Both the position numbers and the translations under genes were made by a program. Source: Eledone cirrhosa (taxonomy: Eukaryota). Taken from it: a DNA stretch of 64,000 nucleotides. Under the pieces are notes generated by a model. The model saw nothing but the letters and a program-made list of their open reading frames with translations. It searched no databases and was not told the origin of the DNA. The stretch is taken from the NCBI GenBank assembly GCA_964016885.1, contig OZ024740.1:131998001-132062000 (forward strand), in the 5' to 3' direction. Below, one piece after another: positions 48,061-59,510 of this stretch (position 1 is the first letter of the stretch; the number at the start of each line of letters is the position of its first letter).

Positions 48061-48585
48061 GAACGCTGTAATAGTTTCAAGATATTAGCTATCATCAGCA
48101 ACGTATACCTTCCTGCCAGAGGATTGAACGTTATTCGTTTCATTTTTTCCGTTTATCGTTTTCGGTGCATCCGGCCGATTAACCCACTAGATATGCAAAT
48201 TGGGCTACTCAGGCGTTAATATGCATAAGGAAAGTATATAGTTTCGGACGTTCAATCATCTGGCAGGTAGGTATACGTTGCTGACGATAGCTAATAAGCT
48301 TGAAAATAGTACAGCGTTCATTTGCCAGTGTTGAACAAACGAGCAACGGTGCTTGCTTGACACTACGGCTTAATACGGGATGTTTGTTTACAAAAACAGC
48401 GAGCATTATAATAAATGTTCGGTGAATCCATACGTACATATATATATATATGTGTGCATGTATGTATATATATATACATACTACTGTACGTCTGTATACA
48501 TATATGTATGTACGTATACATACTTATATTAAAGTAACAGCCGTACTAAGATTGGGAAATGAAATTTCGTTTCATTTTTTCCGTA
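48061..48585 (+). mobile_element. Hammerhead-bearing non-coding repeat (retrozyme-like), ~432-bp unit with an inverted 5' arm
   Basis: ttcgtttcattttttccgt at ~48135 and ~48567. HHR at 48275-48317 and an inverted HHR copy at 48063-48104. Confidence 0.75.
48275..48317 (+). ncRNA. Type I hammerhead ribozyme motif (stem III has one substitution)
   Basis: acguug-CUGACGA-uagcuaauaagcuu-GAAA-auag-UA-cagcgu. Outer helix cuggca/ugccag. Confidence 0.75.
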
Positions 48586-49765
48586 TATATATATATGGTG
48601 AAAAATGGAACGGGAACAAAACAGAGAGTCAGTACAAACAAAGGTTTATTAGTGTCACGTTCTTGAGAGTGGGGAGGGAACCACGTTTAGGGCATAAGCC
48701 TTCTTCAGGAGAACAAGTGGTGGAAGGGCGTGGCGCGTGTAGTTGTGGTGGCGGGTGGAGTGGAGAGAGGGAGGCGGGTTGTCCGCGGGGGGAGGACTGA
48801 CGGTGGTGTATCTGTGTAGGTGTACGTGTGTGTGTATGTGAATGTCAGAATTGGGGGAAGAACGAGGTTCCATGTTCAGGAAAAGGTGTGTATGTGGGGT
48901 GTGGTGTAGGTCCGTGTATGTGCGCGTGTGGATGGGGTGGGTAAGAGGGCGGGACAGGGGCGTATTCCGGAGGCTGAGTGTGTATATATGTGGGGGTACG
49001 CACGTGTGTGTTGGTGTTTATACGTTTTGTGGATGTAGGTGGCATGGTTCGAAAAAAAAGTGTGAATGTATGTCCGTGGTTAGTACCTAAGGTAGTTCCG
49101 TAGAGGATCTGCAGAGTGCCGGATATTTTCCATGTAATGGAGTGGATAGTGGGAACGATGGGAAATGGTATGTAATCCGTTGGTTGTGGTATTCGGAAGA
49201 AGCGAGATGTGGGGTTCGCGCGCATCAGGTAGTGGTCAGAAGCACAAGGCATGATGAGGCTAGAGGAGAATTACAGGTGGAGAGAATTGTGTGTCTGTCT
49301 GTGCGGAGAAGTGGTCAGAGACTCAAGGCAGGAGAAGTCATAGCAGCAGTAGAGGGGAATGGCAGGTGGAGAAAGTCAGTGTGTCAGTGTGTGCGGAGGT
49401 GCGGTGGACAGGGGAGAGGATGGGTAGGTGTGAAAGGTGTAGTGAGGAGGGGGTCATGTGGGGGGATGGGGTGTGTATTAGTAGAGGTGTTAGTGGGATG
49501 TGTGTGTATGTGAAGGTGTGTGGGTGGACGGGGAGAGGGAGAGAAAAGGTGTGGGGGACAGTTGGAGGGAGTGTAGTGTACTGTTGTGTGTGTGCGTGTT
49601 TGGATGAGTGTGTGTGAGATGACGGAGGTGTTAGTGGGTGTTAGTATACTGGTCGTGCGTAAAGGGTATAATGCGGGTGTGTTAGTGGGGGTCAGTGGTG
49701 GTAGGGTGTGTTGAGTGGGTGGTGTATGTGGGTGTGGGTGGGTGGATGTGTTCGTGTGCGTGGGG

Positions 49766-50391
49766 CCGGTTTGTCTGTGTGTTTACATACAGAATAGCTG
49801 GCCACTCACAGTAAAGTGACCAGTGAAAAAAACTTGGTACATCTACATATGTATACGTGTGTGTATTCATATACATACTAGTATTTCAGTATACATATAT
49901 GGATGTACATCTTTAACTTAATTGTTTAAGCGTCAGTCATACAAAAGTGAGTTACAAACGAAACGAAATTTAATTTCGTTTCGTTATTTGTTTTTATCGT
50001 CTCCGTTGAACCGGTACTTACTCACACTCTATGCAAATTAGTCTGCCCACTACTAATTATCATAGAAAAAGCATATAACGATATGTGCTTTTACGATTCT
50101 CTAGAGAGGCCGGAAGATAGGTAAATATTGCTGATGAGTTGTAACAACAACGAAACTAGTTCAATATTCCTTGTCTGGCTTTCTGGAGAATAGAGGAAAG
50201 GTGTTTCCTCAAAAACCAGTATGACTCTAAAAACCGGTTTGTCTGTGTGTTTACATACAGAATAGCTGGCCACTCACAGTAAAGTGACCAGTGAAAAAAA
50301 CTTGGTACATCTACATATGTATACGTGTGTGTATTCATATACATACTAGTATTTCAGTATACATATATGGATGTACATCTTTAACTTAATT
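49766..50391 (+). mobile_element. Retrozyme-like 468-bp unit with 158-bp terminal redundancy
   Basis: 49766-49923 repeats at 50234-50391. Contains a canonical HHR and no ORF. Confidence 0.8.
50124..50168 (+). ncRNA. Canonical type I hammerhead ribozyme (GUU site)
   Basis: aauauug-CUGAUGA-guugu-aaca-acaac-GAAA-CUAG-UU-caauauu. Stem I 7 bp, stem II 5 bp, palindromic stem III. Confidence 0.88.
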
Positions 50392-50775
50392 ATATATATA
50401 TATATATATATGTATATATATATATGTGTATATATATATATATATATATATATATATATATATATATATATATATATATATATATATATATATATATATA
50501 TATATATATATATATATATATATATATATATATATATATATATATGTATATATATATATGTGTATATATATATATATATATATATATATATATATATATA
50601 TATATATATATATATATATATATATATATATATATATATATATATATATATATATATATATTATATATATATGTATATATATATGTGTATATATATATAT
50701 ATATATATATATATATATATATATATATATATATATATAAATATATATATATATATATATATAGATGTATATATA
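50392..50775. repeat. Long (TA)n microsatellite
   Basis: Directly visible. Confidence 0.98.
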
Positions 50776-50799
50776 GGTGGAAAAGTAGGAAATCGGAGA

Positions 50800-56515: not shown

Positions 56516-57479
56516 GTGTGTATATATATATATAAATATATATAAATATATATATATATATATATATATATATATATATATATATATATATATACATATA
56601 TATATATATATATATATATATACACACATTATTAAAGCCTAAATAGTAAATACTTCGCAAACGACACCATGTGCCATTTATTCCACTCCTGTCTTTACTC
56701 ACGCTTCAAAAATGTTAATGTATGCTGTGTTATGCCAAATGCAGTACCGTATTGATAACTCATATTCACTCACTAATAACATGTATATAGTGCAAGTGTG
56801 TAATCCCTTGTGTGACCACCTCAGCGAATGCCACTTTCGTGTAGTAATTCTGTATTCACTTGGTATCCACAACGCCCTTCATCAGTTGGAGTCGGATGTT
56901 TTTGCGATCTGCTGCTGGCTTCACATAGCACCGTATGAGATATACAGTATTTAGTATGGCGTCCAAGAAGAAACCCACGATATGGGAGGTGGCGACATAT
57001 AATAATGTGTCACGGTCGATATATATATATATATATATATATATATATATATATATATGTGTGTGTGTGTGTGTGTGTGTGTGTGTGTGTGTGTGTGTGT
57101 GTGTGTGTGTGTATGTGTGTGTGTATGTGTGTGTGTATTTGTGCGTGTGTGTGTGTGTGTATACGTTGTAAGTTGAATCGAAGTCAGTGTTGCAGGATAT
57201 ATACAAACTTAATCGGCCCCTTAGAATCATTTTGATATCTATCAGCTTCGGGTACTATCAAAATAGTAGGGCCCGACTCTTCTCGACATCTCGTCATATA
57301 TACGAGTTTTCATGTACAAAGGCGCATCTAAAATCTAGTCACACATCTAACATATAGACACACACACACATACACGCGCACAGACAAATATACACACGAA
57401 GAGACACACACACAGGCACACGCACACATACACACACAGATATATATAGGTTTCGATGAAAAGTTCATATGCAGCGGAC

Positions 57480-58330
57480 TGTTTAATATATGTTTTTAAT
57501 GTAACTACTATCGACTTCTCTTTGAAATAGTCCACATTTCCAATGGTGTTACTACATTAAGAGATGTCGTTTCAGCTTTATCAATAGGGTAACAGTGGGT
57601 ATCTGAATTTAGGAGGGGAAGGGAGTCTCTTGAAGATGACACATGATGTGAACGTCCTGCAACACCCACCACCGCGAGAGAAACATTGATCAAGTTGAGC
57701 ACCTCGGTGACAGTTGACTATGAATCAAATAGCAAATGCAATTAGCGTATCCTATGGGGGGGGGGGGTTTCACCACTTTCAGTCAGAGACAAAGAGAAAA
57801 TCCATGAAGTGGAATCACCCCTTCTCCCCTACTCGAAAGAAGGCTAAGTTCTTTTCATCTGCAGGGAAGTTGATTGTCTCAGATGTCGCGATCATTTAAT
57901 ATCTTCAAAAGAGCCAGCATGCTCATGGAGATAAATATGTCTTTAAGTCCACACACCGAGTAAAACAGATGAAAGGGGTCTTGTTTCATCAAGACAATGC
58001 TCATGCACAAAAGTCTTTGGTTTCAATAGCTGACGTGCGTGACTAAGACATTGAAGTGGTTGATTACCTTCCCTTTTCTCCTGATATCTTCCCATCGTCT
58101 GTTCCACAAGATAAAGGTTACACTACTGTGGGAACTATTATGGCTGTGGTGATGGCATCATATCTGCTGTTGATGACATTTTTTACGAACAGGATGAAAG
58201 CGACTACAACTATGTGAACCAAACACGCCAACACCAAGGCAAGTAGTGTGTGGACCTCAAGGAGGCCTATGCTAGGAAATACATCCCATTTGGTGACATT
58301 CCATGAGACCATTTTCGCCAGCCCGTGTAT
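57480..58330 (+). mobile_element. Degenerate mariner transposase remnant
   Basis: W..EFRRGRESLEDD...RPAT.TT.ENI, ETKRKSMKWNHPFSPTRKKAK..SAGKL, LFHQDNAHA and PFSPDI.PS. Confidence 0.8.
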
Positions 58331-58682
58331 TTTTCAGTATACACTCGTATGTATAATATATATATATATATATGTGTGTGAGTGTGTGTGTGTGTGAGTG
58401 TGTGCGTGTGTGTGTTTGTAAAAGGTAAACAGAAATAACAACATAACCGGTAGAGTACATGTGGGTAACCACGGTAAGTAAGCTACTCAATACATAGCAG
58501 AATACACATATTTAGTATAGAAATGGATTCTACAGGTCTAAAACTGTTTCTTCCGGGAGGGATGGGATTCTGATGATTTCTCCCGAATGAACAGTTATAG
58601 TTCTGTAGTAGCAATTTCTCTCTCTCTCTCTCTCTCTCTCTCTCTCTCTCTCATATATATATATATATATATATATATATAT

Positions 58683-59510
58683 AAGTAAGTATACGTACAT
58701 ACATATATGTATACAGACTACAGTAGTATATATATATATGTATATATATATATATATATATATATATACATATACAAACATGCACACATATATATATATG
58801 TACGTATGGATTCACCGAACATTTATTATGAGGCTCGGTGTGTTTGTAAACAAACATCCCAAATTAAGCCGTACAGTGTCTAGCAACCATCGTTGCTCAT
58901 TTGTTCAACTCTGACAAAGGAACGCTGACCTAGTGCCAAGCTTATTAGCTATCGTCAGCAACGTATACCTTCCTGCCAGATGGTTGAACGTCTGAAAGTA
59001 TTTACTTTCCATATGCATATTAACGGCTGAGCAGCCTAATTTGCATACCGAATGAGTTAATCGCCCGGGGTACCGAAAACGATAAACGGAAAAAATGAAA
59101 CGAAATTTCATTTCTCACACTTAGTACGGCTGTTGCTTAAATATAAGTATGTATACATACATACATATATGTATACAGACGTACAGTAGTATGTATATAT
59201 ATATATATATATATATATATATATATATATATATATATATATATATATATATATATATATATATATATACATATATATACATACATGCACACATATATAT
59301 ATGTACGTACGGATTTACCGAACATTTATTATAATGCTCGGTGTGTTTGTAAACAAACATCCAGAATTAAGCCGTACAGTGTCTAGCAATCATCGTTGCT
59401 CATTTGTTCAACACTGACAAAGGAACGCTGTACTAGTTTCAAGCTTATTACCTATCGTCGGCAACGTATACCTTCCTGCCAGATGGTTGAACGTCTGAAA
59501 GTATATATGT
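58683..59510 (-). mobile_element. Retrozyme-like tandem (~1.7 units, 503-bp period), same family as 48061-48585
   Basis: HHR motifs at 58922-58964 (GAAA decayed) and 59425-59467 (CCGACGA core). Shared flanks and ATGCAAAT. Confidence 0.78.

What the first reader, a model, noticed from the sequence alone, without database searches (positions are those of the whole stretch)
48061..59510. A second, sister hammerhead repeat family at two loci (432-bp and 503-bp periods) sharing architecture with the 468-nt unit
48135-48585 (+) and 58683-59510 (-) are the same family. It shares with the 49766 unit the order [ttcgtttc..tttatcgt] - ATGCAAAT - extended stem I - HHR with A-CUAG-U palindromic stem III - TA-rich tract. 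The stem I and II sequences differ (acguug/cagcgu vs aauauug/caauauu) yet both pair, which is structural covariation and implies selection on the ribozyme fold. An expandable internal (TA)n sets the unit length.
Basis: partly seen in the sequence, partly recalled or inferred. Interest (0 to 1): 0.75.

Follow-up and report, generated by a model that had tools for sequence, protein, structure and literature searches.

The report
Sister hammerhead retrozyme families in TA-repeats
Two related, very abundant non-coding repeats in this animal genome each carry a hammerhead ribozyme motif and likely spread as small RNA circles copied into TA microsatellites by Penelope-like retrotransposons; they are new members of a known group (non-LTR retrozymes), and the copies flagged here are decayed.

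Summary
Confirmed, and a known kind. The 432/503-bp copies are one family, colinear with the 468-bp unit (63% identity; the stretch outside ribozyme and TA tract beats 500 of 500 shuffles). Both carry a canonical type I hammerhead with a 1-bp stem III and CUAG loop; 5 of 14 pairs change on both sides. Corrections: none of the 4 family-2 ribozyme copies here is intact, so selection acted on the family, not these loci; (TA)n explains 432 versus 503 but not 468; the octamer is only a lead. DNA runs of one sample show very high abundance, the palindromic loop in over 99% of depth, head-to-tail junctions and a recurrent 3' end running into (TA)n at the homologous point in both families. One locus has an inverted 5' piece. 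This is a non-LTR retrozyme whose insertion anatomy resembles Penelope-like elements, the likely mobiliser. Cleavage, transcription and circles are untested. The scan noted ribozyme-free units with similar insertion patterns in other genomes, but no look-alike of this sequence.

The parts
48061..48131 (-). Locus A, inverted piece (Ainv): stem I extension and hammerhead only, head-to-head with the forward copy; ends about 10 nt past the cleavage site
   Evidence: its 5 differences from the majority of the four copies are not shared with A1, so it is not a simple fold-back assembly artefact
48134..48584 (+). Locus A, forward copy of family 2 (period 432, about 1.04 units), starting in the loop of the box hairpin and ending just past its next copy
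48193..48200 (+). ATGCAAAT (octamer-like; also the 5' arm of a predicted hairpin)
48275..48317 (+). Hammerhead A1: core intact, predicted cleavage after 48311, loop III mutated to AUAG (family majority CUAG)
48438..48479 (+). Variable TA tract (42 nt here) inside a long predicted hairpin
48553..48584 (+). Box hairpin and the recurrent family-2 3' end
   Evidence: 63-85 contigs per run continue as (AT)n behind 48596
48585..48596 (.). (AT)6 target remnant between locus A and element X
48597..49765 (-). Neighbour X: unidentified repeat with a high-depth 3' end, a hammerhead-core-like motif near 48690-48710, ending at the same (AT)6; its other end joins B head-to-head
   Evidence: no Pfam or Atlas identification
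49766..50391 (+). Locus B, family 1 (period 468, 1.34 units; 158-nt repeat with 0 mismatches)
50124..50168 (+). Hammerhead of B, intact; predicted cleavage after 50161; Rfam HH9 37.7 bits, below the gathering score of 52
50391..50775 (.). (TA)n tract 3' of B
50776..52380 (-). Neighbour Y: decayed element with a minimal-hammerhead-like motif near 50830-50870, 3' end at the same (TA)n; PLE-like by recalled protein motifs only
   Evidence: database searches blank
58681..59507 (-). Locus C, family 2 (period 503, about 1.65 units), (TA)n on both sides
59425..59467 (-). Hammerhead C1: ACUAGU intact, U4C in the core, one stem II pair broken
58922..58964 (-). Hammerhead C2: A13, A14, U16.1 and H17 all changed, predicted dead
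59191..59302 (-). Expanded TA tract of C1 (112 nt), the cause of the 503 period

Best explanation
These are decayed insertions of a high-copy, non-coding non-LTR retrozyme family, sister to the 468-bp family, whose intact master copies likely yield self-cleaved RNA circles that a Penelope-like element's reverse transcriptase likely copies into (TA)n microsatellites. Steps: (1) shown - a closed unit of about 430 bp with no long ORF, head-to-tail junctions and a canonical type I hammerhead; (2) inferred from newt and axolotl ribozymes of the same build - two ACUAGU palindromes in a tandem transcript pair to form stem III, the RNA is cut into monomers and ligated; (3) predicted - the circle folds into a string of hairpins shared by both families; (4) inferred - a PLE protein nicks (TA)n and starts reverse transcription just 3' of the box hairpin (or 55-74 nt further 5', at the foot of the TA hairpin), running more than once round the template to give 1.0-1.7 units with fixed 3' and variable 5' ends, sometimes with an inverted 5' piece; (5) shown - after insertion the copies gather point changes and the TA tract changes length.
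For: Closed non-coding unit: longest ATG frame in doubled units 62-79 aa, no tRNA, back-joints of 432 and 468 in DNA runs. Ribozyme build (6-bp stem I plus bulge, stem II with UAAYAA loop, 1-bp stem III with palindromic tetraloop) matches the canonical type I motif of PMC4209133 and axolotl HHR_Amex1, which cleaves well as a dimer. Covariation 5 of 14 pairs; hold-out test 5 double changes against 0.9 expected in both directions (7 and 6 of 5000). Circular folds z = -9.9 (B) and -3.9 (A). Summed depth 0.86-1.0 million over 48181-48411 against 5-11 for near-identical low-copy contigs; 48306 reads C in over 99% of depth in 3 of 3 runs; 63-85 contigs per run go on as (AT)n behind 48596 and 12 contigs (listed for X1) behind 49997, the homologous point of family 1. 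3 of 3 window loci end at (TA)n, which covers 1512 of 64000 bases. Inverted 5' copies, optional tails and (TA)n bias are PLE traits (PMC8557442); internal RT starts define the tail (PMC11167929). The window holds an RT plus GIY-YIG ORF and a related ORF with a CX4CxxC linker.
Against: No RNA data, no cleavage assay, no circle seen. 0 of 4 family-2 ribozyme copies is intact, and 8 of 9 predicted Xenopus retrozyme dimers did not cleave in vitro. No sequence likeness to any PLE end in the window. Covariation outside the ribozyme and TA tract is only modest (pairs kept 47 and 175 of 5000; double changes 518 and 708 of 5000). The inverted piece lacks the family 3' end, unlike the textbook PLE inversion, and no listed contig spans that junction. 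Loci A and B have no (TA)n on their 5' side. Two of three loci end inside AT-rich unit sequence, which a later deletion could also give. The three runs are one sample, perhaps the window's source, and summed depth is not a copy number. Family-2 ribozymes got no Rfam hit up to E 10.
Confidence: 0.75

Rival explanations
1. The unit is the detached terminal repeat (pLTR) or an internally deleted derivative of an autonomous Penelope-like element, copied from linear tandem RNA; the ribozyme rides along and no circle is needed.
For: Partial tandems, inverted 5' piece and (TA)n ends are PLE traits; 24 of 57 Xenopus retrozyme families matched known repeats, nearly all PLE termini; ribozyme mutants did not block PLE insertion in vitro.
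Against: The unit closes on itself at locus C with no ORF between ribozymes; the ribozyme is canonical, not the minimal PLE form; depth is of one order across the unit and the best-supported loose ends lead to (AT)n or to variant unit sequence (18 rows shown, 1724 not shown); no match to PLE ends in the window.
Confidence: 0.14
2. It is mobilised by something else: a LINE (twin priming also gives 5' inversions), or a DNA-level rolling-circle or slippage process, with the ribozyme inherited from an ancestor.
For: Non-LTR RT elements sit in (TAA)n-type tracts in the same window; twin priming by LINEs is established knowledge (recalled); a hairpin lies just inside the 3' end.
Against: (TA)n lies on both sides at locus C, so it is a target and not a tail; no 3' likeness to window LINEs; no terminal inverted repeats; covariation points to selection on RNA.
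Confidence: 0.08
3. These particular loci are kept by the host as functional ribozymes.
For: Core of A1 and all of B are intact.
Against: Private changes hit core and stems in all 4 family-2 copies; by my reading 6 of the 9 near-fixed differences listed for A1 in 48134-48420 break a predicted pair or the palindrome that the family majority keeps; the surroundings are nested repeats.
Confidence: 0.03

Closest known systems
Non-LTR retrozymes of animals (Cervera and de la Pena 2020, PMC7229834; Li, Clavereau and Pollet 2026 preprint, 10.64898/2026.07.22.740005)
   Same: Short non-coding head-to-tail unit, GC 35-36%, canonical type I hammerhead, strongly self-paired predicted circle with the ribozyme helices free to form, two related families in one genome, very high copy number, co-existence with PLEs.
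   Different: Unit of 430-470 nt is at or just above the 150-450 bp given in 2020 (within the 51-972 bp of the preprint); here 1-1.7-unit insertions in (TA)n with a recurrent 3' end and an inverted 5' piece, which the parts of those papers that I read do not describe.
Newt satellite 2 and axolotl HHR_Amex1 / HHR_Amex2
   Same: 1-bp stem III capped by a palindromic tetraloop (Amex1); U-U at the base of stem II (Amex2, as in family 2); newt satellite 2 has an snRNA-type promoter, whose octamer element I recall but did not read.
   Different: No sequence comparison was made; family 2 combines both weak features; promoter function of ATGCAAAT here is untested.
Penelope-like elements (Neptune, Naiad, Penelope/Poseidon) and their pLTR ribozymes
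   Same: Partial tandems, inverted 5' piece, two alternative 3' ends, (TA)n bias.
   Different: No RT or GIY-YIG ORF in the unit; canonical instead of minimal ribozyme; the two ends are 55 and 74 nt apart against a 30-40 bp tail.
Rfam RF02275 Hammerhead_HH9
   Same: B matches the full model, E 1.2e-06.
   Different: 37.7 bits is below the gathering score of 52; family-2 copies gave no hit.

Membership tests
Non-LTR retrozyme | Canonical type I hammerhead in each unit | tested here: met
   Present in every unit; intact in B and in the majority of the four family-2 copies, damaged in each single family-2 copy
Non-LTR retrozyme | Short head-to-tail repeat unit, low GC, no LTR/PBS/PPT, non-coding | tested here: met
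   Periods 432/468/503, GC 0.35-0.36, longest frame 62-79 aa, back-joints in DNA runs; PBS/PPT judged by eye only
Non-LTR retrozyme | Highly self-paired predicted circle with accessible ribozyme helices | tested here: met
   z -9.9 and -3.9 on 40 shuffles each; stem I 0.47-0.97 and stem II 0.95-1.0 pair probability
Non-LTR retrozyme | [quoted passage not shown] | tested here: not met
   Only locus C has two ribozymes in tandem and both are damaged; these loci are offspring, not masters
Non-LTR retrozyme | Self-cleavage, and expression as linear and circular RNA | not testable with these tools
   No RNA run was available
Non-LTR retrozyme | Co-existence with autonomous PLEs | tested here: met
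   ORF 35094-37556 has RVT_1 (E 6.5e-16) and GIY-YIG (E 0.0015, below cut-off)
Penelope-like element (autonomous) or its pLTR | RT and GIY-YIG ORF linked to the repeat | tested here: not met
   Unit closes on itself; profile search finds no likeness to PLE ends in the window; whole genome not held
Penelope-like element (autonomous) or its pLTR | Insertion anatomy: partial tandem, inverted 5' copy, optional tail, microsatellite target | tested here: inconclusive
   Partial tandem 3 of 3 loci, (TA)n at the 3' end 3 of 3, inversion 1 of 3 but lacking the 3' end, two end points 55/74 nt apart
Rfam Hammerhead_HH9 (RF02275) | Gathering score 52 bits | tested here: not met
   37.7 bits for B, none for family 2
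snRNA-type promoter as in newt satellite 2 | Octamer plus proximal sequence element driving transcription | tested here: inconclusive
   ATGCAAAT sits in a 12-nt identity run, but two other runs are as long or longer and it lies in a predicted hairpin arm; no host PSE was available
tRNA-derived SINE | tRNA-like head | tested here: not met
   0 tRNA genes in the window; a decayed head could be missed

The most novel reading that the evidence does not exclude
The two families record the retrozyme life cycle in their DNA ends: a conserved hairpin fixes where a Penelope-type reverse transcriptase starts on a circular RNA, giving two discrete 3' ends, (TA)n targeting and inverted heads, while the whole 430-470 nt circle, not only the ribozyme, is under structural selection and carries its own octamer-type promoter. 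That would be direct anatomical evidence for PLE mobilisation of canonical-hammerhead retrozymes and would name the RNA signal to test.
Probability: 0.3. Interest if true: 0.6.

Novelty: new member of a known kind. Interest (0 to 1): 0.36.

Why it matters
The class is known, but who copies animal retrozymes and how is still argued from co-occurrence and phylogeny. Two diverged, very abundant families with the same 3' end point, the same target and a shared fold offer a natural comparison that points to a candidate RT start signal. They may also be a sizeable, probably unannotated part of this genome and a source of natural circular RNAs.

Tried and rejected
No whole genome is held. No RNA holder listed; this is no evidence on expression. 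Rfam at gathering level: 0 hits; the many miRNA hits at E-value level lie mostly on TA-rich tracts, all far below gathering, and were rejected. Ribozyme patterns found 0 matches in metagenome contigs, prokaryote genomes and viral contigs. No look-alike among earlier scan findings. Neighbours X and Y could not be identified: Pfam blank apart from one chance-level hit, Atlas scores 0.75-0.76, 0 of 34 candidates significant, only weak tblastn likeness of Y to the fragment at 54446. The idea that B and X were inserted together as one head-to-head product was considered and left open: X shows many near-fixed differences from its family while B has 0 of 158 between its repeats. MITE rejected (no terminal inverted repeats, variable 5' ends). 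Fold-back assembly artefact for the inverted piece rejected because its changes are private. A guess of the host group from recalled repeat features led to one paper search that showed no description of these families in the 25 titles listed; the host is not established.
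Full report
Setting. The window is repeat-rich animal-type DNA: tandem non-LTR retrotransposons at 1-21549, PLE-type ORFs at 35094-39420 and many (TA)n tracts. No whole genome is held. I call the 432/503 family 'family 2' (loci A and C) and the 468 unit 'family 1' (locus B).

A (48134-48588, +) aligns with C (59104-58679, -) at 83% over 430 columns including the TA gap; between ribozyme and TA tract the three copies differ by 7.1, 9.3 and 10.8%. Periods are 432, 503 and 468. A profile search of the window finds no further copy. Families 1 and 2 are colinear, 63% identical over 422 aligned columns. 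Two segments are weaker: ribozyme-to-TA 5 of 500, octamer-to-ribozyme 71 of 500.

The ribozyme. Each unit has CUGANGA, a stem II with a UAAUAA or UAACAA loop, GAAA, a one-pair stem III capped by CUAG, a GUA or GUU site and a 6-bp stem I with a bulge and long extension. This is the canonical type I build, not the minimal PLE form (PMC4209133, part 1 of 4 read), and it matches axolotl HHR_Amex1, which cleaves poorly alone and well as a dimer; the U-U at the base of family-2 stem II recalls HHR_Amex2 (PMC7229834 section 15). Of 14 named pairs, 5 change on both sides between families (1 of 500 shuffles; slid controls 0-1). In a hold-out test, structure predicted from one family and scored in the other on a sequence-only alignment gives 5 double changes against 0.9 expected (7 and 6 of 5000). 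All of this is one comparison between two lineages. Rfam gives B 37.7 bits for HH9, below the cut-off of 52, and nothing for family 2.

There are four family-2 ribozyme copies, and none is intact: Ainv has a broken stem II and loop III, A1 has AUAG, C1 has U4C and a broken stem II pair, C2 has lost A13, A14, U16.1 and H17. Only ACUAGU gives a full 6-bp self-duplex (-4.8 kcal/mol, against +2.0 and +2.2 for A1 and Ainv; the C2 variant still gives -4.6 with 4 bp). The TA tract is 42, 112 and 72 nt in three copies, so it explains 503 against 432, but the 36 nt between 432 and 468 are spread over other intervals. ATGCAAAT lies in a 12-nt identity run; two other runs are as long or longer, and it is one arm of a predicted hairpin. 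Newt satellite 2 uses an snRNA-type promoter (passage in PMC2220036); that it includes an octamer is my recall. It stays a lead.

Family-level evidence. Three runs hold the stretch; they are one sample and one study, kept as contigs, none on record as RNA, and may be the window's source. Laid on 47950-50233 at 80% likeness, summed depth is 0.86-1.0 million over 48181-48411 and 0.3-0.53 million over most of B, against 5-11 for contigs nearly identical to low-copy parts. The tool warns that this is no copy number; it suggests an order of 10^4 to 10^5 copies (inference). Position 48306 reads C in over 99% of depth in 3 of 3 runs, so the family keeps the palindrome. Of the 9 near-fixed differences listed for A1 in 48134-48420, 6 restore a predicted pair or the palindrome by my reading; 40 of 192 rows were shown, so variants at other core positions are not excluded. 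Joints back by 432 and 468 exist in DNA. Behind 48596, 75, 85 and 63 contigs continue as (AT)n, and 12 contigs in X1 do so behind 49997, the homologous point in family 1 (18 loose-end rows shown, 1724 not).

Insertion anatomy. A ends just past the box hairpin, at that recurrent point. B and C end 74 and 55 nt earlier in their units, at one homologous point at the foot of the TA hairpin. All 3 of 3 ends run into (TA)n, which covers 1512 of 64000 bases. C has (TA)n on both sides and joins it at its 5' end within the TA-rich loop of a small hairpin; A and B have none on the 5' side. A carries an inverted ribozyme piece head-to-head with the forward copy; its changes are private, so it is not a fold-back artefact, but it lacks the family 3' end and no listed contig spans the junction. 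B's 158-nt repeat has 0 mismatches, as expected if a young insertion was copied more than once round one template. Partial tandems, inverted 5' copies, an optional 30-40 bp tail and (TA)n bias are described for PLEs (passages of PMC8557442), and the tail lies between two internal RT start sites in a stem loop (PMC11167929, parts 1-2 of 4). The window holds candidate partners: an RVT_1 plus GIY-YIG ORF and a related ORF with a CX4CxxC linker before its GIY-YIG-like motif, the linker proposed to favour microsatellites. No sequence likeness ties the unit to them.

The fold outside the ribozyme. Circular units fold far better than shuffles (z -9.9 for B, -3.9 for the decayed A; 40 shuffles each), and six hairpins occur in the same order in both families. 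The hold-out test outside ribozyme and TA tract is only modest: pairs kept 53 against 43.9 (47 of 5000) and 60 against 52.1 (175 of 5000); double changes 8 against 5.0 and 9 against 6.1 (518 and 708 of 5000). The alignment is off register in at least one hairpin, which lowers these counts. Whole-circle selection is suggestive, not shown.

Mechanism. Most likely, intact tandem masters elsewhere are transcribed, cut by dimeric hammerheads and ligated into circles (inferred from PMC7229834 sections 14, 15, 17); a PLE protein nicks (TA)n and copies the RNA from one of two internal start points (inferred); the copies then decay (shown). Against: no RNA evidence exists here; 8 of 9 predicted Xenopus dimers did not cleave in vitro; PLE insertion in vitro did not need the ribozyme, so a linear tandem template would fit the ends as well.

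Comparison and novelty. It works like, and by the tested sequence features is, a non-LTR retrozyme; cleavage and expression could not be tested, and the window's loci fail the preprint's criterion for an active copy (parts 1-3 of 5 of 10.64898/2026.07.22.740005 read; supplements not seen). It is not an autonomous PLE. Five paper searches listed no description of these families or of fixed 3' ends in (TA)n for retrozymes; 'microsatellite' and 'inverted' occur 0 times in the main text of PMC7229834. The library lacks most subscription journals, so this is not proof of absence. Earlier scan notes on other genomes describe ribozyme-free units with similar insertion patterns (unchecked). Verdict: real, a new member of a known kind, with insertion ends worth a genome-wide look. 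Interest 0.36.

Noticed in passing
window 48597-49765 (-): Unidentified CA-rich repeat X with a high-depth 3' end (about 200,000 at 48629), a hammerhead-core-like motif and an end very like that of Y; it is tail-to-tail with locus A at (AT)6 and head-to-head with locus B.
   Followed up: partly
window 50776-52380 (-): Decayed element Y, PLE-like by recalled motifs, with a minimal-hammerhead-like motif of the U3-A8 type and palindromic ACGUACGU near 50830-50870; tail-to-tail with B across 385 nt of (TA)n.
   Followed up: partly
window 58927-58936 (-): Four substitutions within 9 nt of the C2 core; two of them make the 3' side complementary to the first core strand, as a template-switch mutation would.
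   Followed up: no
window 48248 and 48339 (loose ends): Recurrent loose ends in 3 of 3 runs look like further diverged subfamilies of the same unit.
   Followed up: no
window 35094-37556 and 37355-39420 (+): Two adjacent PLE-type ORFs; the first has RVT_1 and GIY-YIG, the second a CX4CxxC linker.
   Followed up: partly
window 1-21549 (-): Three and a half near-identical (99.7-99.8%) tandem copies of a 5.27-kb non-LTR retrotransposon separated by (TAA)n-type tracts, next to a related 1140-aa intact ORF.
   Followed up: no
window 30600-33840 (-): Broken reading frames that look like a Helitron Rep-helicase by recalled motifs.
   Followed up: no
window 59533-59821 and 60147-60434: A 290-bp direct repeat (94%) next to locus C's 5' (TA)n, unrelated to the retrozyme.
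   Followed up: no
window 43110-43668 and 46945-47500; 54302-54412; 61358-61699: Inverted repeats: a 72% pair of about 560 bp, a GC-rich hairpin and a 340-bp foldback.
   Followed up: no
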